Assembly: GCA_038250865.1 (NCBI GenBank)
Contig: JBBSBW010000008.1
Coordinates: 6,753-70,752, forward strand
From: Thermoanaerobaculia bacterium
GTDB taxonomy: Bacteria; Acidobacteriota; Thermoanaerobaculia; Multivoradales; UBA5704
Direction of reading: 5' to 3'
Length of the DNA: 64,000 bases
Part shown: piece after piece, positions 26,398 to 38,993 of the stretch
Position numbering within the stretch: the first letter of the stretch is position 1
Layout: each line of letters begins with the position of its first letter
The notes under the pieces: generated by a model
Databases searched by the model: none
Told to the model about the DNA's origin: nothing
The model's input: the letters and a program-made list of their open reading frames with translations, nothing else
Translations under genes and position numbers: made by a program

Positions 26398-26650
26398 CGA
26401 AAAAAGAGTGAACTCGAACGCCTCAAAAGTGAACTCGAACGCCTCAAAAGTGAACTCGAACGCCTCAAAAGTGAACTCGAACGGTTTGCAAGCGAACTTT
26501 TTTGAAAAAAGATCGAACTTGAGCAGCCCGAGAACGTTCTCGAGGAGTTTGGAAGCGAACTTGAGCGCCCAAAAGTGAACTCGAACCGTTTGGAAGCGAA
26601 CTTGAGGCGCTCACGAGCGAACTTCAAGAGCTAAAGAGCGAACTTTTGGG
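26398..26650. repeat. 21-bp tandem repeat array: 3 perfect copies of AGTGAACTCGAACGCCTCAAA followed by about 9 degenerate copies
   Basis: Perfect units at 26398, 26419 and 26440, then degenerate GCGAACTTGAG-containing units to about 26650. In-frame it encodes SELERLK heptads broken by stops and frameshifts. It lies in the 536-bp divergent gap between the DM13 lipoprotein and vapB. Confidence 0.8.
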
Positions 26651-26727: not shown

Positions 26728-26958
26728 ATGGCCAATCTGACCGTTGCGATCGATGACGAGGTACTTCGTCGCGCCCGCGCCCGCGCCGTGGCTCAAGGGA
26801 CCTCGGTGAACGCGCTCTTGCGGAACTATCTCCAGGGCTTCGCGGGCGCACGTACCGCGCAGGAGGCGGCGATCCGATCGCTTCTCGAGCGATCCGCCCG
26901 CGCCCGAAGCAGTAGTGGAGGACGGCGGATCTCGCGCGACGAGTTGCATGAGCGTTAA
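26728..26958 (+). CDS. vapB: VapB-type antitoxin (ribbon-helix-helix)
   Basis: MANLTVAIDDEVLRRARARAVAQGTSVNALLRNYLQGF is a typical RHH antitoxin N-terminus. It overlaps the PIN toxin gene. Confidence 0.7.
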   Translation: MANLTVAIDDEVLRRARARAVAQGTSVNALLRNYLQGFAGARTAQEAAIRSLLERSARARSSSGGRRISRDELHER

Positions 26959-27376
26959 AGCCTTTCTAGACACCAACGTCTTGGTGTACCTGTTCGACGC
27001 CGGGCAGCCTGCCAAACAGGCAATCTCGCGAGAGATTCTCGAGCGCCAAGGTTTCGACCTGGAGCTTCACCTCAGCACCCAAGTTCTCCAGGAGTTCTTC
27101 GTAGCCGCGACTCGCAAGCTCAAGCCTCCACTGTCCGTGGAAGATGCCCTGGGCGCACTTGCCGATCTGGCCGAGCTACCGACCGTCCAGGTGGATTTTC
27201 CTCTGGTCGTGGCCGCCGCTCGATTGAGCCAGAAGCACCAGATTTCGTTCTGGGATGGGTTGATCCTCGAAGCGGCGGCCGGTTGCGGCTGCAGCACGGT
27301 ATTCACGGAGGACCTCCAAGATGGATGGGAGGTTCGCGGACTTCGAGTGGAGAATCCCTTCCGCGGTCTCGGATGA
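26948..27376 (+). CDS. vapC: VapC-type PIN-domain toxin
   Basis: MSVKAFLDTNVLVYLFDAGQPAK...TQVLQEFFVAATRKL...ISFWDGLILEAAAGCGCSTVFTEDLQDG: PIN motifs are present. Start taken at the internal ATG at 26948. Confidence 0.8.
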   Translation: MSVKAFLDTNVLVYLFDAGQPAKQAISREILERQGFDLELHLSTQVLQEFFVAATRKLKPPLSVEDALGALADLAELPTVQVDFPLVVAAARLSQKHQISFWDGLILEAAAGCGCSTVFTEDLQDGWEVRGLRVENPFRGLG

Positions 27377-27718: not shown

Positions 27719-28639
27719 TCACAGGTTCCAGGGGCCGCCAGGCGGCCAGCTTTGAAGAAAAGCGGTGCGCTGTCGAACCGCGTCGAGTGGAAGGAGAAGA
27801 AACGTCCGAAGCTCGGGGAGCAGAGCGCGGGCGGTCTCTACGTTGGCTTCCAAGTGTGCTCGCCGTGCGAAAGCTCGCAGGTGCGCGATGCGATTCTCCG
27901 TCTGCCAGAACTCGTCGGTCAGGCCGATCGGAATCCCGGGCGGTACGCGCGTGCCTCGTTGTTCGAAGGTTTTGTTGATGGCCTGCACCAGCCGGTCGCC
28001 TTCGAAGGCGAAACGTCGCGAGAGATAGTGTAGATCGAAGAAGTCTTTGATTCGGCTGTTGGCGATACCATGCACGATCATCGCTTCGACCTTCTCCGCG
28101 ATCACCGTTTCCGGGGCGTAGGCGAGGATTTGTGGCGCCGGTTGATCGAGGAGGGTTGGATAGGTGGCTTGCTGTGGAAAAGGCCAAGCCTCGCCCGTTC
28201 CGATGTCGATCTGGAGAGGTAGCCTCGCTTGGCCGAGGCGGCAAATAAGACTAGCTCTGAACCCTGCTTCCTCCAGGTCCGCTCGTATTGGAGCGAGGTG
28301 AAGGTCCCGCGCGTCAAACGTGACGCCATCGTCCTCGACTTCGGTGGCTGCGACTTGCCGGATGCCGCTCTCGATCGACTGAAGGGAGGTCTGCTTCGAT
28401 TGCCACAGAAGATCGAGGTCGACTGTTGCCCGGTACGGCTGGTCGGCCCACAGGCGGAGGAGAACGGCTCCTTTGAGCGCGAATCTCTCGCGGAGTTCGG
28501 ATCTTCCAAGTCGGTAAAGGAATCGCTCCAGGAGATAGCCCTGAAGGACGAGTTGGAAGTCCTCACCCTTGGCTCTGGCATGGTTGAGCAGCCGCTGATG
28601 CACCGACTGAGCGATGCGGGGATCTGCCGGTCGAGTCAC
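27719..28639 (-). CDS. AbiEii/AbiGii-family nucleotidyltransferase toxin (type IV TA/abortive infection, DUF1814)
   Basis: 306 aa, immediately downstream of and overlapping an AbiEi-like gene. Sequence LKGAVLLRLWADQPYRATVDLDLLW...IAEKVEAMIVHGIANSRIKDFFDL is characteristic of AbiEii. Confidence 0.75.
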   Translation of the reverse strand: MTRPADPRIAQSVHQRLLNHARAKGEDFQLVLQGYLLERFLYRLGRSELRERFALKGAVLLRLWADQPYRATVDLDLLWQSKQTSLQSIESGIRQVAATEVEDDGVTFDARDLHLAPIRADLEEAGFRASLICRLGQARLPLQIDIGTGEAWPFPQQATYPTLLDQPAPQILAYAPETVIAEKVEAMIVHGIANSRIKDFFDLHYLSRRFAFEGDRLVQAINKTFEQRGTRVPPGIPIGLTDEFWQTENRIAHLRAFARRAHLEANVETARALLPELRTFLLLPLDAVRQRTAFLQSWPPGGPWNL

Positions 28640-29244
28640 AGAACCGACTCAAGATAGGGCTGAATCACCCGGCCCACGCGATTCATCTGCGCGAAGCGCC
28701 AGAGGTCGTCGGCGCCGCCTCGGTTCATTCGAAGGTAGTCGCGTAGGGCCTCGACGGCGACGTCGATCCCGATTTTGTTGCGGAACTTAAAGCAGTCCGC
28801 GACGGTCTTGGCCGGAGAGTAGATCCGAACGGGCACGCCATCGATCGTGTGGGTCTCAACCCCTTCGATCCAGCCCGAGCCCGAGAGGTGAATCACGTGG
28901 ACCCGGAACGGCGGTGCGCTCGGTCGCCAGGCGTTGTTCGGTAGGGCGATCCAAACCTCCGGAGGATTCTGGGTGGTCAGGCCGTGAAATCGGAGTGCCG
29001 ACAGGAGGCAGATCACTCCCTGCGGGACTGCCTTGGACACCTCAGCCAGAGACCTGTAGGTGGAGCCGGTCGAATCGGGGAGGGTATAGAGGCCGCGCCC
29101 GACTCGGATCAGGTCGCCCCTGGCCGAGAGACGCTGGGCGTACTCCCGGGGTATGCCATGTGCCAGGAGGTCTCTCGGGCGCAGGACTCCGAGGTCTTTG
29201 GCAAGGAGCCGGATGCGGGAGTCGATGTCGTGTGAGGAGTTCAT
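28636..29244 (-). CDS. AbiEi-family antitoxin/transcriptional regulator (type IV TA)
   Basis: ATG at 29242-29244: MNSSHDIDSRIRLLAKDLGVLRPRDLLAHGIPREYAQRLSARGDLIRVGRGLYTLPDS (N-terminal wHTH of AbiEi), then C-terminal domain. It is upstream of AbiEii with a 4-nt overlap. Confidence 0.7.
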   Translation of the reverse strand: MNSSHDIDSRIRLLAKDLGVLRPRDLLAHGIPREYAQRLSARGDLIRVGRGLYTLPDSTGSTYRSLAEVSKAVPQGVICLLSALRFHGLTTQNPPEVWIALPNNAWRPSAPPFRVHVIHLSGSGWIEGVETHTIDGVPVRIYSPAKTVADCFKFRNKIGIDVAVEALRDYLRMNRGGADDLWRFAQMNRVGRVIQPYLESVL

Positions 29245-29378
29245 GGTCACAAATCCTAGGTACTTCCGCACAACTACCTATGAATTGTGACTCGCTCAAT
29301 TGCCCAGGTCAACAGTGCAAAATGTTGGCACTTGGTCGCAAGTGCCGACGTTTCGTCCTATTGGCCTTCAGCCCACCC

Positions 29379-30941
29379 CTACTCCGGCACCAACCCCTTA
29401 GCCCGAGCCTTCCGCTCGTAGTTGGTCTCGCGATCCAACACGTCCAGGGTCTGGAAGTACAGCGCGTCGGCTTCGGCGTGGCTGTTGGCTATTGCCGTCA
29501 CTCCCAGCTTGCCGAATTCGGAGACGGCTCCGATCAGGTGGAACAGGACTCCGGAGTCTTTGGCGTGGCTGTAGTGGAGGCGGTTCTCGGTGAGGATCTC
29601 GATCAGGTCCTCGGGGATCAGGCCGCGGTAGGCCTCGGACTGGAGGTTGTCGGTCGCGCGGTAGAACTTTTGGGCTCCGGTGGGGGAGATGAACAGGCCG
29701 CTTTCGGGGTCGAGGGTGCCGCCGGTGAGGAACTGGAGGGCGAGGAACGGGTGGGTCGTGCCGCCCATTCGTAGGTTGATTTCGAGCGCCGAGCAGTCCC
29801 AGTTGTCGGTCTGCGCGTCGCGCCAGACCAGGAAGTCGACCGCGAAGCGGCTGACCACGCCGTTTCTCGCCAGAACCTCGCCGATTTTGATCGCCTGCTC
29901 CTGGATGTAGCGCCGGTAGTCGTCGTGCGCCGGGAACTTGCAGCCGAGGAACACCTGGTTGCTCGGGCCGCCGAGGATCTGGTCGTGGGTGGAGATCGGC
30001 AGCACCTCGCCGTGCGGGCTGATCCGCAGCTGGGCGGAGGGGGACATCTTGTCCTTCCCCTCGATCCACTCCTCGACGATCCCCTGCATCCGGCGGTACT
30101 TGTCGAAATAGCTATCGACATTTTCGGAAGGGACCGAGAATTCGAGGTTCGCCAGCTCGCGCCGGACCGAGGAAAGGCCGCGATCCTCCGGGTAGCGAAA
30201 GACCGCGTTGCCTTCGCCCGAGAAGCTGTCGTTCAGCTTGACCACCGCGCGGCGAATTCCTGGCCGCTCGCGGTCGAGATCGACCAGCGCCTCGGCGACA
30301 TCCACCTCGTCGCGCAGGTCTTCTTTGCCGAAGGGCAGCGCCACGCCCGCTTCACGAAACACCTTGCGGCTGCCCGATTTCGTTCCCAAGTGGGCAAGAT
30401 CGGGGTCGGCGCCGTTCATCGGGATGCCGAGCAGCACCGCCAGGCGGCGCTCGAAGGGCGTCGAGTTGAAAACCGTGAGATAGGCGCGCGAGGAGTCTTG
30501 AATGCCCTCGCGAATCCGCTCGATCAACCGAGGACGTTCGAGAATCTTCTCGGTGAGCGAGCGGGGCGAGGCGTCATAGGCGCAGAGCAGCGTCAGGCGC
30601 GAGCGGGCGTGGCTCGCCGGGATGCCCGCGAGCAGGTGGAAGTAATAGTCCAGGATCATCGGGTGGATCGGTTCCGACGTCACATAGACCACTCGGGCCC
30701 GGGGGTTGCGCAGGCGGATCAGGAGGAACAGCAGCCGCTCTTCGTAGAAGTTCGCGCCGGCCAGTTTTTTCAGCTCGCTCTGGTCGAGCGTGAGCGACGG
30801 CACGACGACCGAGGTGTGGGGCTCCTCGTCGCGCATGGTCAGAGCTTCCCAGACCTCCAAGAGGCGAGGCTGGAGATCCCGGAACATCTCGCGTTCGAGA
30901 TCGAGGTTCAGATCGGACAGAAATGGCGGCTTTGGAATCAC
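29379..30941 (-). CDS. ATP-grasp family protein, PGM1-like peptide-ligase-related (pre-ATP-grasp plus ATP-grasp)
   Basis: 520 aa. The overall pattern VVVPS...VVYVTSEPIHP...SRKVFREAGVALP...AVVKLNDSFSGEGN...RFAVDFLVWRDAQTDNWDCSALEINLRMGGTTHPF is recalled as PGM1-type ATP-grasp ligase. The assignment is from memory, not from a search. Confidence 0.5.
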   Translation of the reverse strand: MIPKPPFLSDLNLDLEREMFRDLQPRLLEVWEALTMRDEEPHTSVVVPSLTLDQSELKKLAGANFYEERLLFLLIRLRNPRARVVYVTSEPIHPMILDYYFHLLAGIPASHARSRLTLLCAYDASPRSLTEKILERPRLIERIREGIQDSSRAYLTVFNSTPFERRLAVLLGIPMNGADPDLAHLGTKSGSRKVFREAGVALPFGKEDLRDEVDVAEALVDLDRERPGIRRAVVKLNDSFSGEGNAVFRYPEDRGLSSVRRELANLEFSVPSENVDSYFDKYRRMQGIVEEWIEGKDKMSPSAQLRISPHGEVLPISTHDQILGGPSNQVFLGCKFPAHDDYRRYIQEQAIKIGEVLARNGVVSRFAVDFLVWRDAQTDNWDCSALEINLRMGGTTHPFLALQFLTGGTLDPESGLFISPTGAQKFYRATDNLQSEAYRGLIPEDLIEILTENRLHYSHAKDSGVLFHLIGAVSEFGKLGVTAIANSHAEADALYFQTLDVLDRETNYERKARAKGLVPE

Positions 30942-30993
30942 CGGGGTCCTCCCTGCTCCACCGCTCCGCTCCCTGGAGGCCGTGTCGCTCGCG

Positions 30994-32244
30994 TCATACC
31001 AGCTGTCCTACGGCGGCACCCGGGCCGACGATGGGGAATTCCAGATCGCAGGCGGGAAAAGAGATCGGGTTCAGCGCCCGGTCCTCGTGTACGTCGATCG
31101 CCTGGCCCAGGCTTTCGGCTCGCAGCCGGATCTGGCGATAGAGGTGATAGCGCAATGGTGCAAGCAGCGTGAAGTTCGAGGTGAGCTGGAGCAGGTGATC
31201 GCTGTCTTCGCCGGAGTAGACCCGGGTGAGGATTTCGCGCCGCTCCGTCGCCCACTGGCGGGAGACCTCGCCGCGTTCGACCCGCCGTTCGAGGATCAGC
31301 ATCTGGCGGGCGCGATTGATGATCTCGGGATGATGGTTGACCCCGAAGATCCGCGGCATCACCCCGGCGTCGTCGCGGTCGAATTCGTACATCGTGAGCG
31401 CATCGCCCTGCGGCCCGCCGACGCTTTCCGTCTCGTAGCCGATCGCCGTGCCCGACGCGGGGAAGTTTTCGGGGTCCGGGATCAGGTCGAACAGCCGGTT
31501 ATCCAGAATTCGCAGGCGCGGGCCGCCGAGCTGGTTGTAGAAGCGGCGAAACCAGGGGTGCTCGATCGCTTCGGGGGTCAGCATGTTTTCGAGCACCCCC
31601 GTGCTCTTGCCGCCCTTTTCGACCGACCGAAGCACCGGCCGGGCGATGCCCGACCAGTCGCACAGGACGCCGAACGTGTGGCAGACGGCGAGCATCGCGG
31701 CCGACCGGTCGGCGAGGATGCTGTCGAACAGATCGAAAGCCGGCGCGCGCCAGGAGGGATCTTCGCGCAGACCCTGGCTATGCTCGACCAGGCCGTCGTT
31801 CTGGCGCGGATCGATATGACCCGGGCCTCCCGTTCCAAGGTAGAGCGAAAACCGTCCGCCGGGCGGATCCGGCAGCCTGGCGCTGCCGCGCACGTCGAAC
31901 GAGATCGCCCGAACCTGAAGGCCGAGGCGCAGCAGCTCGGGCGACAGGTCGCAGCAGGCGTCGACCAGAGACGCGACCAGCGAATCGTGGCCGAGGTTCG
32001 GCCAGCCGTGGTTCATGTCGAGCACGGCGACGTCGATCGTCTTGGGTTCCGCTGCGGGAACGGGCGCGTTTCCTTCGACCCGGGCGTAGCGATAGCCCGA
32101 CTCCGAGCCGCGCGCGGGGCAGTCGGTGATGCAGAATTCTTTGCCGTAGCGTCGTTTGAGCTGGCAGTTGACAGGCATTCCGGCGTCCGGGTCTCTCGTA
32201 GAGTAGTTGCCGGACTCTATCGTCCGGCCCGGCGTGTCGTCCAC
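30994..32244 (-). CDS. Class-I glutamine amidotransferase-like protein (Cys-His triad motifs), start uncertain
   Basis: IDVAVLDMNHGWPNLGHD (beta1), MLAVCHTFGVL (nucleophile Cys elbow) and RIFGVNHHPEI (GATase1 His motif). It is upstream of and co-directional with the ATP-grasp gene with a 52-bp gap. Alternative start MPVNCQ at 32178. Confidence 0.4.
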   Translation of the reverse strand: MDDTPGRTIESGNYSTRDPDAGMPVNCQLKRRYGKEFCITDCPARGSESGYRYARVEGNAPVPAAEPKTIDVAVLDMNHGWPNLGHDSLVASLVDACCDLSPELLRLGLQVRAISFDVRGSARLPDPPGGRFSLYLGTGGPGHIDPRQNDGLVEHSQGLREDPSWRAPAFDLFDSILADRSAAMLAVCHTFGVLCDWSGIARPVLRSVEKGGKSTGVLENMLTPEAIEHPWFRRFYNQLGGPRLRILDNRLFDLIPDPENFPASGTAIGYETESVGGPQGDALTMYEFDRDDAGVMPRIFGVNHHPEIINRARQMLILERRVERGEVSRQWATERREILTRVYSGEDSDHLLQLTSNFTLLAPLRYHLYRQIRLRAESLGQAIDVHEDRALNPISFPACDLEFPIVGPGAAVGQLV

Positions 32245-32316
32245 CCTAGATCAACCGCCGGTCGCTCCATGGTATTCTCCCACCACTTTTAGCTCGGAAT
32301 CCCCCTGGAGGTACAC

Positions 32317-35229
32317 ATGCGCAAGCTTTCCCTCTCTCTCGTCGCTGGTCTCTGCGCGGTCTTTCTTTTCGCGTCGGGTCCGGCACATGCCGCGGCTTCC
32401 TGGCCGACTCTCGACCTGCAGTTTACGAACTCGCCGGTACCGATCCAAGCCGGCAGCGCGCTTGCGCGATTGATCCAAGAGAACCAGGACTTCTCGATGC
32501 TCCGCGCTGACGAAGCGAAGGACCTGCGCGGCCTGCCGCCGTGGCTTCGCGTCTGGTGGCGGAAGGAACATCCGGAGGTTGCCTACACGAAGGAAGATCC
32601 GACCGGCGGCTATCCACTGGTGCTGAAGGAAATCTGGGAGTGGATGCTGCATCATCAGGATCTCCTGCCCGGCACGGCCGAGGCGGATCGGGCTCCCGGC
32701 GCATCGGAAGAGGAGCTGGAAAGCGACGCCGCGATGGTGAGCGGCGAGATTCGGACCTCCGGCTCGCAGACCACGCCGCGCAGCGAATCCGACATCCGGG
32801 TCAACTACTTCGATCCGACCAAGATCATCAGCGCCAGCAACAGCATCGTAGGCGGCGGACACCAAGCGGTGTTCTTCTCGACCGACAGCGGTATGACCTG
32901 GGGTCAGACGACGCTGCCGTTCACCGCGACCGACGCCTCGCACTCCGATCCGACCGTCGAGTGGACCTCCGACGGCCGGGCCTGGTCGACCACGCTCGGC
33001 ATCGTCGGCAGCGTGCTCAAATTCCGCACTTACGTCTCGACCGACAACGGCGCCAGTTGGACCTTCGAGGCGACCCCCTCGGCGGCGCAGACCAACGTCG
33101 ACAAGCAGATGGTGTGGGCGGATCACAGCGCGACCTCGCCGTTTAAAGACAACCAGTATGCGATCTGGCACAACGGCACCCCGGCCTTCATGAGCACCCG
33201 GAACGCGGTCACCAACACTTGGGGCGCGCCGATCCAGGTAAGCGGCGCGGAATCGACCGGCACGGCGATCGGCGGCGATGCCAAGACCAACTCGTTCGGT
33301 GACGCGTTTGGCTTCTGGCCGACCACCACGAACGCCCGGGTGTTCGTGGTCAAGTCGACCACCGGCGGGACCTCGTGGGGCACGCCGGTCCAGGTGGCGA
33401 CCACGTTCGACACCTTCGACATCGGCTGCCCGTCGTTCAACAACCGGCGCGCGCTGATCTACATCTCCGGCGGCGCCTATCGGACGGCGACCAAGAACCT
33501 GGTCTACGCCACCTGGAACGACCTGTCGGGTGAAGCCGGCTGCACCGCGCCGGCCAACGAGCCGGGCGCCAACGCCGCTTCGACCTGCAAGATCCGCATC
33601 TGGTTCGCCCGCTCGACCGACGGCGGGGCGACCTGGGAAGCGAAGAAGATGATCAACAACCAGGCGAGCTTGAACGACCAGTTCAACCAATGGCTGGTGG
33701 TCGACGAGACGACCGGCGCGCTCGGCCTGATGTACTACGACACGGTGGGCGACGCCACGCGCAAGAAGGTCGACGTCTGGTACCAGTCGTCGTTCACCGA
33801 TGGCGTTTCTTGGAACCCCGCGGTCAAGGTCACATCGGCGCAGACCGACGAGACGACCGGCGGCCAGGACAGCGGCAACCAGTTCGGCGACTACAACTCC
33901 CTGTCCGGCATCGGCGGCACTTTCTGGCCTTCCTGGACCGATCGCCGCGCGGGAGCCCGCGAGGAAATCTGGACCGCCAAGGTCGCGGACGGCGCCTGCG
34001 CCTTCCCCGGGTCGCCGACCATCGGCACCGCCACCCCGACGGCTCCGAACCAGATCACGGTGACGTTCGGCAACGGCGCTCCGCCCTCCTCGGTGTTCAA
34101 CGTCTACCGCGCGGTCGGCACCTGCGCCTCGCCGGGAACGTTCTCGCGCATCGCCTCCGGCATCGCGGGGAGCCCCTACCTCGACAGCACCGTTTCCGGT
34201 TCCGTCACCTACGCCTACAAAGTGGCGGGAGCGGATGCCACGAACACCTGCGAGTCGGCGCAATCCGGCTGTGTTCAGGCGACCGCGACCGGCGTTTGCA
34301 CCCTGCCGCCGACCTTCGCGGGGGTTGCCTCGGTGACCAATGGCGCCACCTCTCTCTGTTCGATCGGCGTCGCCTGGGCGGCGGCCACCGCGCAATGCGC
34401 GGGTCCGGTCACCTACAACGTCTATCGCTCGACCACACCGGGTTTCGCCCCGATGGTCGCCAACCGGATCGCGGCCGGCGTCTCCGGCACGTCGTTCAAC
34501 GACAACACCCCAGGCATGTTGATGAACGGCACCACCTACTACTACAAGGTGCGGTCGGTCGACGCGGGCAACAGCGCCGAGGACACCAACACGGTGGAGA
34601 AGAGCGCGCAGCCGACCGGCCCGATCGCGGTGGCGAACTTCACCGAGACGTTCGAAGGGGCGGGCGGTTTCGACAACGCGGGTTGGTCGCATGCGGCGCT
34701 TTCCGGAGCGAACGACTGGACCCTGGTCACCTCGCAGAGCCAGACCCCCACCCATTCCTGGAACTCGGTGAGCCAGCCGTCGGTCTCCGACCGCGTGCTG
34801 GTATCGCCGGGCTTCGTCGGCCAGGCGGGAAGTACACTGTCGTTCTTCCACACCTTCGCGTTCGAAAGCGCCACGTCCTGCTTCGACGCCGGCACCCTGG
34901 AGTTTTCGACCGACGGCGGAATGACCTGGACGGTCCTGCCGGATGCGAACTTCACGGCCGGCGGTTTCACCGGCACCGTCTCGGCGAGCTTCTCCAACCC
35001 GATCGGCGGCAAGCGTGCCTGGTGCAACGGCACGATCGGCGCGATGACCCAGGTGACGGCGAACCTCGCTTCGCTCTCCGGCATGAGCTTCAAGCTCCGC
35101 TGGCATGAGGGAGACGATTCGAGCGCGATCGCCACCGGCTGGTTCGTCGACTCGGTCAATCTCAACAACGTCGGCACGGCGAGCGTCTGCGCGATGCCGG
35201 TGTCGCTGACTGGATTTTCGATCGAGTAA
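32317..35229 (+). CDS. Large secreted BNR/Asp-box (sialidase-like) protein with two FN3-like domains and a C-terminal MAM-like domain
   Basis: Signal peptide MRKLSLSLVAGLCAVFLFASGPAHA. BNR repeats FFSTDSGMTWGQ, YVSTDNGASWT, VVKSTTGGTSWGT, FARSTDGGATWEA, SFTDGVSWNP. C-terminal ~394 aa are near-identical to the C-terminus of the next gene. Confidence 0.7.
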   Translation: MRKLSLSLVAGLCAVFLFASGPAHAAASWPTLDLQFTNSPVPIQAGSALARLIQENQDFSMLRADEAKDLRGLPPWLRVWWRKEHPEVAYTKEDPTGGYPLVLKEIWEWMLHHQDLLPGTAEADRAPGASEEELESDAAMVSGEIRTSGSQTTPRSESDIRVNYFDPTKIISASNSIVGGGHQAVFFSTDSGMTWGQTTLPFTATDASHSDPTVEWTSDGRAWSTTLGIVGSVLKFRTYVSTDNGASWTFEATPSAAQTNVDKQMVWADHSATSPFKDNQYAIWHNGTPAFMSTRNAVTNTWGAPIQVSGAESTGTAIGGDAKTNSFGDAFGFWPTTTNARVFVVKSTTGGTSWGTPVQVATTFDTFDIGCPSFNNRRALIYISGGAYRTATKNLVYATWNDLSGEAGCTAPANEPGANAASTCKIRIWFARSTDGGATWEAKKMINNQASLNDQFNQWLVVDETTGALGLMYYDTVGDATRKKVDVWYQSSFTDGVSWNPAVKVTSAQTDETTGGQDSGNQFGDYNSLSGIGGTFWPSWTDRRAGAREEIWTAKVADGACAFPGSPTIGTATPTAPNQITVTFGNGAPPSSVFNVYRAVGTCASPGTFSRIASGIAGSPYLDSTVSGSVTYAYKVAGADATNTCESAQSGCVQATATGVCTLPPTFAGVASVTNGATSLCSIGVAWAAATAQCAGPVTYNVYRSTTPGFAPMVANRIAAGVSGTSFNDNTPGMLMNGTTYYYKVRSVDAGNSAEDTNTVEKSAQPTGPIAVANFTETFEGAGGFDNAGWSHAALSGANDWTLVTSQSQTPTHSWNSVSQPSVSDRVLVSPGFVGQAGSTLSFFHTFAFESATSCFDAGTLEFSTDGGMTWTVLPDANFTAGGFTGTVSASFSNPIGGKRAWCNGTIGAMTQVTANLASLSGMSFKLRWHEGDDSSAIATGWFVDSVNLNNVGTASVCAMPVSLTGFSIE

Positions 35230-35384: not shown

Positions 35385-38300
35385 ATGAACCGAATCACCC
35401 GGTTGTCCGCCGGGCTGGTGGTCTCCGTCGCAGCGTTGCTCGCGACCACCGCCTCAGCCCAGATGATGCAGCGCAATGATCCCGGTCCGCTCGGGCGTCT
35501 CGCGACGCTCAAAGAAGCCTTGAGTCCGCCCGCTTCTACCGCGCTGCTCGATCAGACTTCGGTCGGCCTCGCCGCGAACGTCACCAGCACCTGGGGCAGC
35601 TTCCTGGGTGAGGTCGGCGGTACCTGGGTCGGCTACGTCGACAAACGGAGCGGCTACCTGGAGTTCGCGGAAGGTTCCGGCTGGCCCTGGGTTCCGGGCA
35701 ACGGCAACAACCTCGCCAAGGCGGACATCGCGCAGTACCTGGCCGGTGCCGATCAGGTCGACATCGCAACGCTCGACCGGATCGCGCGCGCCAACCTGCC
35801 AACGGTCGCTCCGCTGCTCGGGGTGGCTGACGCCGACCTGAAGCTTTCCGCCGGCCGGTCGGGACGGATGTCGGACTACCTCTGGTACGTCGATTACGAC
35901 GTCTACCGCGGCGGATGGAAGATCGAAGGCGCCCGAGTGATGTTCCGGATCAACCATGGCAACGTGGTGCAGTTCGGTTCCGAGGGCGTGCCGCCGCCGG
36001 GAATCTCCGCCCCCTTCCCGCGCCTTTCGCGCGAAGAGGCGGTCCAGGCGGTTGCGAGCTACATCGGCGGATTCACCACGAGGGACGGTCTGGTCGATAC
36101 CGGCTCGCTCAAGATGATGACTCGCGCCAAGATCGATTCCACCGCCACGGACCACTTCCGGCTCGGCGATGGCTACGGCCTGCTGCCGGTCTGGGAACTC
36201 TCGTTCCGGCGCAAAGAGGTGGTCGGCACCTGGCGCGCCCGGGTCGATGCGATCACCGGCCAGATCATCGAGTTCGGCGACGTCAACGAGTATGCCCAAG
36301 CCAAGGGCGGCGTCGTGCTCGTCCAGCCTTCTCTCGGCGAGACCAGCAAGCCGGTTCCCTTCACCAACATCTCGACCGGCGGCTTCACCAACTCGGCCGG
36401 CGTCTATACGCCCGCCGGGGCGGCGACCTCGAGCTTGAACGGCCAGTACGTCCGTCCGGTCGACAGCTGCGGCGCGATCTCGCTCGCCGCGGACGGCATG
36501 AACAACTTCGATTTTGGTTCCTCGGCGGCGAGCGACTGCTCGACCCCGGGCTTCGGCGGCGCGGGCAACACCCGTTCGTCGCGCACCCAGTTCTATTGGG
36601 TCAACCGGGTGAAGGAAGTCGGCCGCGGCTGGCTCCCGGCGGTCGCCTGGCTCTCGGCCCAGCTGACCACGAACGTCAACCTGAACCAGACCTGCAACGC
36701 CTACTGGAACGGCTCGACGCTCAACTTCTTCAAGTCGGGCGGCGGTTGCGGCAACACCGGCGAGCTGCCGAGCGTTTCGTTGCATGAATACGGCCACGGC
36801 CTGGACAGCAACGACGGCACGGGCGCCCCGCCGGAGAACGGCAGCGGCGAAACGGTCGGCGACTGGACCGCCTCGCTCGCCACCCACCTCTCCTGCATCG
36901 GCTCGGGCTTCCTGGCTTCCAACTGCGGCGGTTACGGCAACGCCTGCACCTCCTGCACGGGAGTCCGCGACATCGACTGGGCGAAGCACACCGCAAATGT
37001 GGCCTCGACCCCGGCGAACTTCACCCAGACCACCTGCCCGCAGCCCAACGCCAACAACCCGAACTACGTCGGCCCCTGCGGCGCCAACGCGATCGCCAAC
37101 GCCACTCTCACCAAGAAGCGTGAAGGGCACTGCGAGTCGTACATCTCGTCGCAGGCGCTCTGGGACCTCGCGAACCGCGACCTGCCGAGCCCCGGCACCG
37201 GCGGCGCCTGGTCGATCTCCGACCGGCTCTGGTACCTGACCCGGGCGACCACCACCAGCTTCTTTACCTGCAACACGGTGCCCACCACCTGGACCTCCGA
37301 CGGTTGCGCGGCCGGCACCCTGTTCCGCACCTTCCGGGTGGCCGACGACGACGACGGCAACCTGGCGAACGGCACGCCGCACGGCGGCTCGATCTTCGCG
37401 GCGTTCGACCGCCACAACATCGCTTGCGCCTCCGATCCGGGGTCGAACACGACGTTTGCGGCCTGCACGATTCCCACCTCGCCGACGCTTTCGCTCACCC
37501 CGTCGAACAACACGATGCAACTTTCGTGGACCTCGTCGGGCGCCGGGATCGTCTACGACGTCTATAAGAACGAGCTCGACTGCAACGCGGGCTTCATCAA
37601 GATTGCCAACGACGTCGCGACGACCAGCTTCAACGACCCGAACGCCGCGAACTTCTTCAACTACAACTACCAGATCATCGCCCACCCGACCGGCACCGAG
37701 GCCTGCGGCGCGCCGCCGTCCAACTGCGCCACGGCAGCTCCGCTGCCCTGTACCGCTCCCTCCTCGCCGACGGTCGGCACGGAGACCGCTTCGGCGCCCA
37801 ACCAGATCACGGTGACCTGGTCCAACGGTGCGCCGGCTTCGGACTTCTTCAACGTCTACCGGGCGGTCGGCACCTGTGCCTCGCCGGGACCGTTCACCCA
37901 GGTTGCGAACATGTTGGCGGGAAGCCCTTACATCGACAACACCGTTTCGGGTAGCACGACCTACGCATACAAGATCTCAGGAACCGAGACGACGGGCGTT
38001 TGTGAATCGCCCCAGACCACCTGCGTCCAGGCCACCGCTACGGGCGTCTGCACCTTGCCGCCGACGTTCGCGGGCATCGCTTCGGCATCCAACGGTGCCA
38101 CGTCGCTCTGCTCGGTCGGCGTCTCCTGGGCCGCCGGAACCGCGCAGTGCGCGGGACCGGTCAGCTACAACGTCTACCGGTCGACCACCATGGGCTTCAC
38201 CCCGATGGTCGGCAACCGGATCGCCTCAGGCGTCTCCGGCACGTCGTTCAACGACAACACGCCGGGCATGCTCATGAACGGCACCACCTACTACTACAAG

Positions 38301-38993
38301 GTGCGGGCGGTCGATGCAGGCAACAGCTCGGAAGACACCAACACGGTCGAGAAGAGCGCCGTGCCGAGCGGGCCGATCGCTGTGGGCACCTTCACCGAGA
38401 CGTTCGAAGGGCCGATGGGCTTCGACAACGTGGGCTGGACGCACGCTGCTCTGTCCGGCGCCCCGGATTGGACCCTCTCGACCGCGCAGTCCCAGACCCC
38501 GACCCACTCGTGGAACTCGACCAGCATCGCCACGGTCTCGGATCGCGTTTTGGTCTCGCCGGCATTCATCGCCGCAGCCACCACGACGCTGTCGTTCTGG
38601 CACACATTCGCTCTGGAGCAGAGCGCCACGCCGACCACCTGTTTCGACGGCGGCACGCTCGAAACCTCGGTCGACGGCGGGATGACCTGGGTCGTCATTC
38701 CAGATGCGGCGATCACTGCCGGTCCGTTCATCGGCACGGTCTCCGCCTCGTTCGGTAGCCCGATCGCCGGCAAGAAGGCCTGGTGCGGCAACACGACGAT
38801 CGGTCCCTTCAGCCAGGTGACGGTCAACCTCGCCGCGTTCGCGGGCCAGACGATGAAGCTGCGTTGGCGCGAAGGGGATGACAGCAGCGTTGCCCGGATC
38901 GGCTGGTTCGTTGACTCTGTGGTTCTGACCAACGCCGGAACGGCGAGTGTCTGCGCCATGCCGGTCGCGTTGACCGGGTTCTCGGTCGAGTAG
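35385..38993 (+). CDS. Large secreted zinc metalloprotease (HEYGH motif, M36/fungalysin-like or M4-like) with two FN3-like domains and a C-terminal MAM-like domain
   Basis: Signal peptide MNRITRLSAGLVVSVAALLATTASAQ. Propeptide-like N-terminal region. Zinc site SVSLHEYGHGLDSNDG. C-terminal ~398 aa are paralogous to the C-terminus of the preceding gene. Confidence 0.75.
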   Translation: MNRITRLSAGLVVSVAALLATTASAQMMQRNDPGPLGRLATLKEALSPPASTALLDQTSVGLAANVTSTWGSFLGEVGGTWVGYVDKRSGYLEFAEGSGWPWVPGNGNNLAKADIAQYLAGADQVDIATLDRIARANLPTVAPLLGVADADLKLSAGRSGRMSDYLWYVDYDVYRGGWKIEGARVMFRINHGNVVQFGSEGVPPPGISAPFPRLSREEAVQAVASYIGGFTTRDGLVDTGSLKMMTRAKIDSTATDHFRLGDGYGLLPVWELSFRRKEVVGTWRARVDAITGQIIEFGDVNEYAQAKGGVVLVQPSLGETSKPVPFTNISTGGFTNSAGVYTPAGAATSSLNGQYVRPVDSCGAISLAADGMNNFDFGSSAASDCSTPGFGGAGNTRSSRTQFYWVNRVKEVGRGWLPAVAWLSAQLTTNVNLNQTCNAYWNGSTLNFFKSGGGCGNTGELPSVSLHEYGHGLDSNDGTGAPPENGSGETVGDWTASLATHLSCIGSGFLASNCGGYGNACTSCTGVRDIDWAKHTANVASTPANFTQTTCPQPNANNPNYVGPCGANAIANATLTKKREGHCESYISSQALWDLANRDLPSPGTGGAWSISDRLWYLTRATTTSFFTCNTVPTTWTSDGCAAGTLFRTFRVADDDDGNLANGTPHGGSIFAAFDRHNIACASDPGSNTTFAACTIPTSPTLSLTPSNNTMQLSWTSSGAGIVYDVYKNELDCNAGFIKIANDVATTSFNDPNAANFFNYNYQIIAHPTGTEACGAPPSNCATAAPLPCTAPSSPTVGTETASAPNQITVTWSNGAPASDFFNVYRAVGTCASPGPFTQVANMLAGSPYIDNTVSGSTTYAYKISGTETTGVCESPQTTCVQATATGVCTLPPTFAGIASASNGATSLCSVGVSWAAGTAQCAGPVSYNVYRSTTMGFTPMVGNRIASGVSGTSFNDNTPGMLMNGTTYYYKVRAVDAGNSSEDTNTVEKSAVPSGPIAVGTFTETFEGPMGFDNVGWTHAALSGAPDWTLSTAQSQTPTHSWNSTSIATVSDRVLVSPAFIAAATTTLSFWHTFALEQSATPTTCFDGGTLETSVDGGMTWVVIPDAAITAGPFIGTVSASFGSPIAGKKAWCGNTTIGPFSQVTVNLAAFAGQTMKLRWREGDDSSVARIGWFVDSVVLTNAGTASVCAMPVALTGFSVE

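What the first reader, a model, noticed from the sequence alone, without database searches (positions are those of the whole stretch)
29379..32244. Candidate undescribed two-gene system: GATase1-like protein plus PGM1-like ATP-grasp ligase, adjacent to AbiE
The pairing is co-directional with a 52-bp gap. The first protein has the class-I glutamine amidotransferase triad motifs (VAVLDMNHG, AVCHTFG, GVNHHPE). The second is a 520-aa ATP-grasp protein of the PGM1 peptide-ligase type. GATase plus ATP-grasp is the logic of carbamoyl-phosphate synthetase: ammonia from glutamine is transferred to an acyl-phosphate made by the ATP-grasp. This predicts an amidoligase that makes a carboxamide on a peptide or metabolite. 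No precursor-peptide ORF is evident. The operon lies between a defence module (AbiE) and giant secreted hydrolases, so it may be defence-related or involved in cell-envelope or natural-product modification.
Basis: inference. Interest (0 to 1): 0.65.

Follow-up and report, generated by a model that had tools for sequence, protein, structure and literature searches.

The report
Acidobacterial ATP-grasp ligase plus GATase-fold partner
Two neighbouring genes, one for an ATP-dependent amide-bond ligase and one for a cysteine hydrolase built like a glutamine amidotransferase, are real and are kept together across soil Acidobacteriota; nobody has characterised them, they most likely make and cleave a small gamma-glutamyl-type peptide, and their position next to the AbiE module is accidental.

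Summary
Two minus-strand genes lie 52 bp apart. Gene A is 30994..32178, 394 aa; its true start is 66 nt inside the reported ORF. Gene B is 29379..30941, 520 aa.

The pair is strongly co-conserved. 75 of 84 genome loci found with gene A have gene B directly downstream. 69 of 73 metagenome loci found with gene B have gene A directly upstream. Start and stop codons often overlap by 4 bp. Nearly all loci come from uncultured Acidobacteriota. No precursor peptide, riboswitch or defence signature is conserved, and AbiE adjacency is limited to the closest relatives.

Relatives of gene A also pair with GCS2 carboxylate-amine ligases, or stand alone. Its nearest structures include the gamma-glutamyl peptidase GGP1. 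Neither is proven. It is a new variant of a known kind, of moderate interest.

The parts
30994..32178 (-). Gene A: 394-aa class-I-glutamine-amidotransferase-fold protein of an orphan family. The ORF is open up to the GTG at 32244, but homologues start at this ATG.
   Evidence: start and conservation; fold; only 239 clusters at 50% identity among 1.84e9 representatives
31984..32019 (-). DMNHGWPNLGHD loop (residues 54-65) after strand 1. It is almost invariant and is the family signature used to retrieve the loci.
31816..31836 (-). GTGGPGH (residues 115-121), the GGPG-type oxyanion-hole loop of class-I GATases.
   Evidence: comparison with GGP1 S68/H70 is inference
31666..31692 (-). Nucleophile elbow LAVCHTFGV (residues 163-171). 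Catalytic Cys166 is at 31681..31683. Gly170 stands where GMP synthase and GGP1 have Gln.
31321..31347 (-). FGVNHHPEI (residues 278-286): triad His283 (31330..31332) and Glu285 (31324..31326).
31111..31314 (-). Conserved three-helix extension after the triad (residues 289-356). It is absent from minimal amidotransferase subunits and resembles the post-HPE helical bundle of GGP1.
30942..30993 (-). 52-bp intergenic spacer with a ribosome-binding site for gene B. In 11 of 48 relatives this spacer is replaced by a 4-bp ATGA overlap.
29379..30941 (-). Gene B: 520-aa ATP-grasp carboxylate-amine ligase of the BesA/PGM1 family.
30204..30245 (-). VVKLNDSFSGEGNA (residues 233-246): ATP-binding Lys235 and glycine-rich loop, invariant.
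29766..29789 (-). ALEINLRM (residues 385-392): the E-x-N Mg/ATP-binding motif of ATP-grasp enzymes (Glu387, Asn389, Arg391), invariant.
   Evidence: motif assignment rests on general knowledge of ATP-grasp enzymes
29457..29609 (-). PGM1 C-terminal domain (residues 445-495).

Best explanation
This is a two-enzyme cytoplasmic module for a small gamma-glutamyl-type (iso)peptide metabolite. Gene B, a BesA-like ATP-grasp, activates a carboxylate as an acyl-phosphate. By analogy with BesA this is most likely the gamma-carboxyl of glutamate. It then joins the carboxylate to the amine of an amino acid or similar small molecule. Gene A is a stand-alone Cys-His-Glu thiol amidohydrolase with the class-I amidotransferase / peptidase-C26 fold. 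It forms an acyl-thioester on Cys166 and releases the amine part. It therefore either turns over the ligase product or removes the glutamyl group after another enzyme has acted on the conjugate, as in the Puu and Bes pathways. In some lineages a GCS2 (YbdK-type) carboxylate-amine ligase joins the operon, giving two sequential ligases plus the hydrolase, which is the logic of glutathione synthesis and breakdown. What is shown: the folds, intact active sites, tight co-conservation and operon structure. What is inferred: the substrates, the gamma-glutamyl chemistry and the direction of each step.
For: Gene B. The best hit is BesA, the L-propargylglycine--L-glutamate ligase. The sequence match to 8yi6 has E 3e-42 and the NCBIfam BesA model scores 162 bits. 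Foldseek gives E 8e-30, 28% identity and TM 0.79. PGM1 and other peptide ligases match far less well, at 15-16% identity. The BesA product is gamma-Glu-propargylglycine (abstract). ATP-grasp catalytic motifs are invariant.

Gene A. It has the class-I GATase fold with an invariant triad. Its top structural neighbours are 3m3p, TM1158, GGP1 and 3l7n. The GGP1 paper names 3M3P, 3L7N and a putative Thermotoga GATase (probably TM1158, my identification) among GGP1's own top structural homologues. It has a long conserved helical extension after HPE, the region where GGP1 binds its leaving group.

Partner flexibility. GCS2 lies directly upstream in 9 genome loci and 5 metagenome loci. L051 and L082 have GCS2 plus gene A but no PGM1-type ATP-grasp. 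The clades at 42-50% identity to gene A have the order RimK-like ATP-grasp, GCS2, gene A. Some members have no adjacent ligase.

Published precedent. [quoted passage not shown] This was interpreted as synthesis of glutathione-like peptides (PMC2588565).

Operon and negative evidence. 75 of 84 and 69 of 73 loci are adjacent, with 4-bp overlaps in 11 of 48. No conserved third gene, small ORF or RNA element was found, which fits common metabolites as substrates.
Against: No substrate is known and there are no experimental data for any member.

A ligase and a hydrolase for the same bond, encoded alone in one operon, would form a futile cycle unless they are regulated or act on different bonds.

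The Gln at Cys+4 binds the glutamyl alpha-carboxylate in GGP1 and is present in GMP synthase. Here it is an invariant Gly, in CHTFG, so the acyl group may not be an ordinary gamma-glutamyl.

Gene A matches neither PF07722 (peptidase C26) nor PF00117 at Pfam thresholds.

Tight translational coupling and about 94% adjacency are equally typical of heteromeric amidotransferases.

Both proteins are unusually conserved (ATP-grasp 65-94% identity, gene A 56-92% across classes). That hints at a more constrained role than a peripheral metabolite pathway.
Confidence: 0.42

Rival explanations
1. This is the first reader's model, a heteromeric glutamine-dependent amidoligase. Gene A hydrolyses glutamine and passes ammonia to gene B. 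Gene B has activated a carboxylate as an acyl-phosphate, and the product is a carboxamide. The logic is that of CarA/CarB or MurT/GatD.
Against: Within this one GATase-fold family the neighbour switches between unrelated ligase folds (PGM1-type ATP-grasp, GCS2, RimK-like) or is absent. That is unusual for a dedicated ammonia-channel subunit. Characterised relatives of gene B use amino-acid or peptide amines. The Gln at Cys+4 of the glutamine/glutamyl pocket is replaced by Gly. Gene A carries 110 residues after the catalytic His, whereas to my knowledge most amidotransferase subunits end soon after it. No natural fusion of the two proteins was seen among the 150 representatives listed.
Confidence: 0.25
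2. This is a reversible modification of a macromolecule. Gene B adds glutamate or another amino acid to a protein or to a peptide encoded elsewhere, as RimK, TTLL and PGM1 do. Gene A removes the modification.
For: Gene B is very highly conserved: 70-78% identity between Thermoanaerobaculia-type and Vicinamibacteria-type loci. PGM1 itself acylates ribosomal peptides, and PF24923 is shared with the eukaryotic IQCH protein. In about 10 loci a split LanB-type dehydratase and a 55-aa ORF lie divergently upstream.
Against: No conserved small ORF lies next to the pair. The lanthipeptide-like genes occur in one subclade only and not in this window. Similarity to BesA, a small-molecule ligase, is much stronger than to PGM1. 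Nothing points to a protein substrate.
Confidence: 0.1
3. This is an anti-phage defence or toxin-antitoxin accessory system that works with the adjacent AbiE.
For: In this window the pair lies beside AbiEi/AbiEii and a VapBC-like pair. Close relatives also carry toxin-antitoxin genes downstream.
Against: Neither protein matches a PADLOC model. AbiE homologues occur in only 4 distinct loci of about 170, all from the clade at 80% identity or more, and are missing from L100, whose gene B is 97% identical. abiEi has its own promoter-like site. Flanking genes are otherwise housekeeping and differ between lineages. The pair's divergence tracks the taxonomy labels of the loci and does not look like a mobile island.
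Confidence: 0.03

Closest known systems
BesA (L-propargylglycine--L-glutamate ligase, Streptomyces; PDB 8yi6)
   Same: Same ATP-grasp subfamily with pre-ATP-grasp, ATP-grasp and PGM1_C domains. It is alignable over residues 54-493 at 28% identity with TM 0.79, and the catalytic motifs are conserved.
   Different: The NCBIfam BesA equivalog scores 162 bits against a cut-off of 750, so this is not an orthologue. No other bes genes are nearby. Gene B has an extra conserved N-terminal helix. BesA has no GATase-fold partner, as far as I know.
PGM1 (pheganomycin peptide ligase; PDB 3wvq/3wvr) and Streptomyces ATP-grasp peptide ligases (8ynd)
   Same: The PGM1_C domain is above the Pfam threshold, and the overall fold matches.
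   Different: Identity is only 15-16%. There is no precursor-peptide gene and no non-proteinogenic acid pathway beside the pair.
Gamma-glutamyl peptidase GGP1 and peptidase family C26 (PuuD, gamma-glutamyl hydrolase)
   Different: Identity is 13-14%. There is no PF07722 or PF00117 hit. Cys+4 is Gly, not Gln. Gene A has an extra N-terminal Cys-rich segment of about 45 residues and a much longer C-terminal extension.
Carbamoyl-phosphate synthetase CarA/CarB, and MurT/GatD
   Different: Gene B is not a CPS or biotin-carboxylase-type ATP-grasp. The partner of gene A is not constant across its family. No complex or tunnel has been shown.
GCS2-type carboxylate-amine ligase plus 'glutamine amidotransferase-like thiol peptidase' neighbourhoods (Iyer, Burroughs and Aravind 2008, PMC2588565)
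   Same: An amide ligase is paired with a GATase-fold thiol enzyme. There is no Pup-like small ORF, and a glutathione-like peptide metabolite was predicted. GCS2 (NF010039, 508 and 492 bits against a cut-off of 371) is a direct neighbour of gene A relatives.
   Different: That paper describes a different ligase family, in proteobacteria. Here the constant partner is a PGM1/BesA-type ATP-grasp, a combination I did not find described.
Cyanophycin synthetase CphA / cyanophycinase CphB, and PuuA/PuuD (from my own knowledge, not tested here)
   Same: In each case a synthetase is encoded beside a hydrolase with a GATase-like fold that cleaves the bond type the synthetase makes, or a later intermediate.
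   Different: CphB is a serine enzyme (S51) and CphA makes a polymer. PuuA is glutamine-synthetase-like. Apart from a distant structural match to PuuD (Foldseek E 7e-5), none of them matched gene A or gene B.

Membership tests
Class-I glutamine amidotransferase-like superfamily (fold level) | Flavodoxin-like alpha/beta/alpha fold of the class-I GATase type | tested here: met
Class-I glutamine amidotransferase-like superfamily (fold level) | Cys-His-Glu triad: nucleophile elbow Cys and an H-P-E motif | tested here: met
   C166, H283 and E285 are invariant in 53 close and 16 diverse sequences. The profile aligns the elbow with GMP synthase and GGP1.
Pfam PF00117 GATase / PF07722 Peptidase_C26 (sequence-family level) | Score above the Pfam gathering threshold | tested here: not met
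   The window protein has no hit to either model. Only the 29%-identical relative P0249 passes PF00117, at 24.4 against 22.8 bits.
Glutaminase / gamma-glutamyl (C26) S1 pocket | Gln four residues after the catalytic Cys, which binds the alpha-carboxylate of the glutamyl group (Q104 in GGP1) | tested here: not met
   The family has C-H-T-F-G with Gly170 nearly invariant. GMP synthase has CYGMQ and GGP1 has CFGHQ in the same alignment.
Heteromeric glutamine amidotransferase (CarAB-like) | Obligate co-occurrence of the GATase subunit and the synthetase subunit | tested here: inconclusive
   Adjacency is very high within Acidobacteriota: 75 of 84 and 69 of 73 loci. However, family members occur with GCS2 only, or with no ligase.
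Heteromeric glutamine amidotransferase (CarAB-like) | Physical complex with an ammonia tunnel, and glutaminase activity activated by the synthetase | not testable with these tools
No multimer predictor or model coordinates were available.
PGM1/BesA-type ATP-grasp ligases | PGM1 C-terminal domain and ATP-grasp domain above Pfam thresholds | tested here: met
   PF18105 scores 52.9 against 22.5 bits. PF24923 scores 76.8 against 27 bits.
PGM1/BesA-type ATP-grasp ligases | Intact ATP-grasp catalytic residues (ATP-binding Lys, Gly-rich loop, E-x-N Mg site) | tested here: met
   K235, S239-N245, E290/E291, D369, E387, N389 and R391 are invariant in 45 sequences. The assignment of roles comes from general knowledge.
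BesA orthologues (NF042917 equivalog) | Score at or above the curated cut-off of 750 bits | tested here: not met
   161.7 bits.
RiPP / peptide-ligase clusters of the pheganomycin type | Precursor-peptide gene in the cluster | tested here: not met
   No small ORF of 18-95 aa is conserved within 1.2 kb upstream of gene A or downstream of gene B across about 80 loci.
Known anti-phage defence systems (PADLOC) | Match to a defence-protein model, or consistent linkage to defence genes | tested here: not met
   Genes A and B have no PADLOC hit. AbiE linkage is found in only 4 distinct loci.

The most novel reading that the evidence does not exclude
The two proteins form a glutamine-dependent ATP-grasp amidoligase. 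That would be the first ATP-grasp enzyme outside carbamoyl-phosphate synthetase to use ammonia channelled from a dedicated GATase subunit. It would make a carboxamide on a small peptide. In lineages that add GCS2, the product could be an amidated glutathione-like thiol specific to Acidobacteriota.
Probability: 0.2. Interest if true: 0.7.

Novelty: new variant of a known kind. Interest (0 to 1): 0.45.

Why it matters
Acidobacteriota are among the most abundant soil bacteria, and most of the lineages that carry this pair are uncultured. The scan of one genome per species found gene A relatives in 360 stretches, and there are thousands of metagenomic variants. That a two-gene module is kept this widely, at 56-94% identity, implies a product that matters to these organisms. 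Candidates are a gamma-glutamyl dipeptide, a glutathione-like thiol or an amidated peptide.

Gene A defines a GATase-fold family with no Pfam or NCBIfam model. Only 239 clusters at 50% identity were found among 1.84 billion representatives. Describing it would close an annotation gap.

The pair is also a clean test case. It can show whether a GATase-fold protein next to an ATP-grasp is an ammonia donor or a gamma-glutamyl-type hydrolase. Genome annotation currently cannot make that distinction.

Tried and rejected
1. Pfam and NCBIfam on gene A gave no hit. Sequence and profile searches of the PDB matched only the HPE region of GMP synthase, plus a weak GGP1 elbow match.

2. A fused-chain AF2 prediction (gene A, linker, gene B, with 18 paired rows) was meant to test complex formation.

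3. The afdb50 fold library was not available.

4. The key comparative paper, Iyer et al. 2009 Mol Biosyst (PMC3268129), is not held. Only the 2008 companion could be read.

5. An Rfam scan of the whole window found no riboswitch or other RNA.

6. PADLOC found nothing for the pair.

7. A search for a conserved third gene found only lineage-specific synteny: a CCA/poly(A)-polymerase-HD gene, an amidohydrolase, split LanB genes and ABC transporters.

8. A search for a conserved small ORF found only low-complexity or alternative-frame artefacts.

9. I looked for a non-orthologous replacement of gene A in the four ATP-grasp loci that lack it. Nothing was informative (an SDR gene and apparently spurious ORFs).

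10. I checked loci where gene A lacks the ATP-grasp. The neighbours were DUF885, LigB, HZS_alpha and GCS2. Only GCS2 recurs.

11. Literature searches for this pairing returned nothing relevant.
Full report
**1. What is in the sequence**

Two ORFs lie head to tail on the minus strand: 30994..32244 (416 aa) and 29379..30941 (520 aa). The 52 bp between them contain a GGAGCAGGGAGG ribosome-binding run just before the GTG start of the second gene. Homologues of the first protein are 376-398 aa and begin at a conserved 'MPxxC'. I therefore place its start at the ATG at 32178, giving 394 aa. The window has 58-70% G+C. By its nearest relatives it comes from a Thermoanaerobaculia-type acidobacterium.

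**2. Gene B (29379..30941)**

Gene B is a BesA/PGM1-type ATP-grasp ligase.
- Pfam gives PF24923 (E 2e-21) and PF18105 PGM1_C (52.9 bits, cut-off 22.5).
- The best solved relative is BesA, 8yi6, with E 3e-42 over residues 54-493.
- The NCBIfam BesA equivalog scores 162 bits, far below its cut-off of 750, so gene B is a paralogue and not BesA.
- An AF2 model (pLDDT 75.5) matches BesA best: E 8e-30, 28% identity, TM 0.79. Other Streptomyces peptide ligases and PGM1 follow at 15-16% identity.
- The ATP-binding Lys235, the glycine-rich loop and the E387-x-N389 metal site are invariant in 45 homologues.

Public annotation calls these proteins 'peptide ligase PGM1-related' or 'carboxylate-amine ligase'.

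**3. Gene A (30994..32178)**

Gene A has no Pfam or NCBIfam match. All homologues are annotated 'hypothetical' and have no precomputed Pfam domain. An exhaustive phmmer search of 1.84 billion cluster representatives found only 239 clusters at E<=1e-3, many of them fragments. It is therefore a small and sharply separated family.

The family nevertheless belongs to the class-I amidotransferase fold.
- C166, H283, E285 and the GTGGPGH loop are invariant.
- A 29%-identical member, P0249, passes the PF00117 threshold.

Three features are peculiar to the family.
- A Cys-rich N-terminal segment of about 45 residues, present only in the closer members. Residues 1-24 are modelled with low confidence.
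- A strongly conserved three-helix extension after the HPE motif, residues 289-356.
- A Gly four residues after the catalytic Cys, where GMP synthase and GGP1 have Gln. In GGP1 that Gln (Q104) binds the alpha-carboxylate of the glutamyl group (PMC12958103).

**4. Co-conservation**

Starting from gene A, a scan of one genome per species (185,579 species) found 360 stretches that encode a relative. The best 80 are nearly all MAGs labelled Thermoanaerobaculia, Vicinamibacteria, Holophagales or Acidobacteriota.
- Of the 84 loci held at that point, 75 have the ATP-grasp directly downstream on the same strand. The spacing is usually 6-130 bp. In five or six loci a gene of about 1-1.3 kb appears to be inserted between them.
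- Two loci end too early to tell.
- Seven lack the ATP-grasp.

Starting from gene B in metagenome contigs, 69 of the 73 loci with room upstream carry gene A directly upstream. In 11 of 48 cleanly extracted pairs the stop and start codons overlap as ATGA.

Across these loci gene B keeps 65-94% identity and gene A keeps 56-92%.

**5. What else is conserved nearby**

Nothing is conserved across the whole set.
- Clustering of all ORFs of 90 aa or more from the loci gave only lineage-restricted neighbours: a convergent CCA/poly(A)-polymerase-HD gene, an amidohydrolase, and ABC components.
- No small ORF is conserved in the flanks.
- No Rfam family matches anywhere in the window.

One recurrent neighbour is informative. 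A GCS2/YbdK-type carboxylate-amine ligase (PF04107, E 3e-62; NF010039, 492-508 bits against a cut-off of 371) lies immediately upstream of gene A on the same strand. It is found in 9 genome loci and 5 metagenome loci.
- Two of these loci, L051 and L082, have GCS2 plus gene A but no PGM1-type ATP-grasp. L082 instead has a weak circularly permuted ATP-grasp upstream.
- In two clades more distant from the window protein (42-50% identical to gene A), the order is RimK-like ATP-grasp, GCS2, gene A. In one of them a 404-aa protein of unknown family follows, with overlapping or tightly spaced genes.
- Other distant members have no ligase beside them.

**6. Interpretation**

The shared theme is amide-bond ligases plus a Cys-His-Glu acyl-enzyme hydrolase.
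- The three characterised reference points all concern gamma-glutamyl bonds. BesA makes gamma-Glu-propargylglycine. The GCS2 family is named for glutamate-cysteine ligation. GGP1 cleaves the gamma-Glu bond of glutathione and its conjugates.
- Iyer et al. [quoted passage not shown] They read this as synthesis of glutathione-like peptide metabolites (PMC2588565).
- The conserved helices after HPE correspond in position to the GGP1 bundle that carries the leaving-group-binding Arg206.

I therefore favour a ligase plus thiol amidohydrolase module acting on a small gamma-glutamyl-type conjugate. From my own knowledge the logic is that of PuuA/PuuD, of BesA plus later deglutamylation, or of CphA/CphB. 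Confidence is 0.42. The folds, intact catalytic sites and operon structure are shown. The substrates and the gamma-glutamyl chemistry are inferred.

**7.

A CPS-like, ammonia-channelling amidoligase remains possible (0.25).
- In its favour: tight coupling and near-obligate adjacency are what a heteromeric enzyme would show; CarA is a good structural match; and gene B has a conserved N-terminal helix, ahead of the stretch that matches BesA, that could be a docking site.
- Against it: the neighbour changes between unrelated ligase folds, or is absent, within a single GATase-fold family; gene B's relatives prefer amino-acid amines; the Cys+4 Gln is missing; gene A has a long C-terminal extension; and no natural fusion was seen.

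The decisive computation, a complex prediction, could not be run.

**8. Other readings**

- A protein- or peptide-modifying role (0.10) is suggested only by the high conservation of gene B and by a split LanB dehydratase plus a 55-aa ORF that lie divergently upstream in one subclade and not in this window.
- A defence role (0.03) is not supported. There is no PADLOC hit. AbiE homologues occur beside the pair in only four distinct loci, all from the closest relatives, and are absent from a locus whose gene B is 97% identical. abiEi has its own promoter-like site in the 107-bp gap after gene B. The stretch downstream of the pair appears to collect toxin-antitoxin genes: VapBC-like and AbiE here, and SocA/Panacea, AbiEi and HigA-like genes in L003.

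**9. Novelty and verdict**

Both folds and the general pairing of an amide ligase with a GATase-fold thiol enzyme are known. I did not find the following in the libraries or papers searched: this gene A family, its constant pairing with a BesA/PGM1-type ATP-grasp, and its restriction to Acidobacteriota.

I rate it a new variant of a known kind. It is a genuine, well-conserved, uncharacterised operon of moderate interest (0.45). Interest would rise if the amidoligase reading or a new glutathione-like metabolite were demonstrated.

Noticed in passing
window 32095..32178 (gene A residues 1-28): Gene A has an N-terminal Cys-rich segment, MPxxCxxKxxxGxxFCxxD(C/H)P...C. Cys5 and Cys16 are invariant among the closer family members, but the segment is missing from more distant members. 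AF2 confidence is low for residues 1-24. It may be a metal-binding or redox-sensing knuckle.
   Followed up: partly
window 26407..26483 and 26595..26645: A perfect 21-bp tandem repeat (AGTGAACTCGAACGCCTCAAA, 3.7 copies) and a second degenerate 21-bp array (2.4 copies, 83% matches) lie about 110 bp apart. They sit in an apparently non-coding stretch between a small secreted-protein ORF and the VapBC-like pair.
   Followed up: partly
window 32317..35229 and 35385..38993: Two large tandem genes for apparently secreted proteins (970 and 1202 aa) share a C-terminal module of about 414 residues at 74% identity, while their N-terminal halves differ. Pfam finds only a Reelin subrepeat-B match (above threshold) and a weak, sub-threshold BNR hit in the first, and nothing in the second.
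   Followed up: partly
window 26728..27376 and 27719..29271: Toxin-antitoxin genes cluster downstream of the pair. There is an RHH antitoxin plus a PIN-domain toxin (VapBC-like) on the plus strand, then AbiEi/AbiEii on the minus strand. abiEi has its own promoter-like site at 29312..29284. Close relatives carry different toxin-antitoxin genes at the same position (L003: SocA/Panacea, AbiEi, HTH_37).
   Followed up: partly
L001 4059..7715 (also L015, L026, L032, L034, L035, L036, L042, L080): In one Thermoanaerobaculia subclade a split LanB-type dehydratase lies divergently upstream of gene A. In L001 the called genes are Lant_dehydr_N (826 aa), Lant_dehydr_C (287 aa) and a 55-aa ORF, which looks like a lanthipeptide or thiopeptide-like cluster. 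In the other loci only the Lant_dehydr_C region was detected, by similarity. It is not present in the window.
   Followed up: partly
L085 5937..10256; L089 2..3253; L082 872..4717: Distant members of the gene A family sit in multi-ligase operons. In L085 the order is RimK-like ATP-grasp, GCS2, gene A homologue, then a 404-aa protein of unknown family with a KPLFSFAGGGV motif that resembles glutathionylspermidine-synthase-type enzymes. L089 has the first three genes. L082 has a circularly permuted ATP-grasp, then GCS2, then the gene A homologue.
   Followed up: partly
window 29925..31172, 30790..32292 and 28914..29774 (+ strand): Long open frames run antisense to both genes (415, 500 and 286 aa). 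They are typical artefacts of high-G+C DNA and are not genes. Similar antisense ORFs produced spurious 'conserved' clusters in the neighbourhood analysis.
   Followed up: yes
gene B residues 49-125 (window 30567..30797): The most sequence-conserved stretch of the ATP-grasp (FYEERLLF...RNPRARVVYVTS, the pre-ATP-grasp domain) is the part AF2 models with the lowest confidence (pLDDT 36-46). The region may need a ligand or a partner to become ordered.
   Followed up: no
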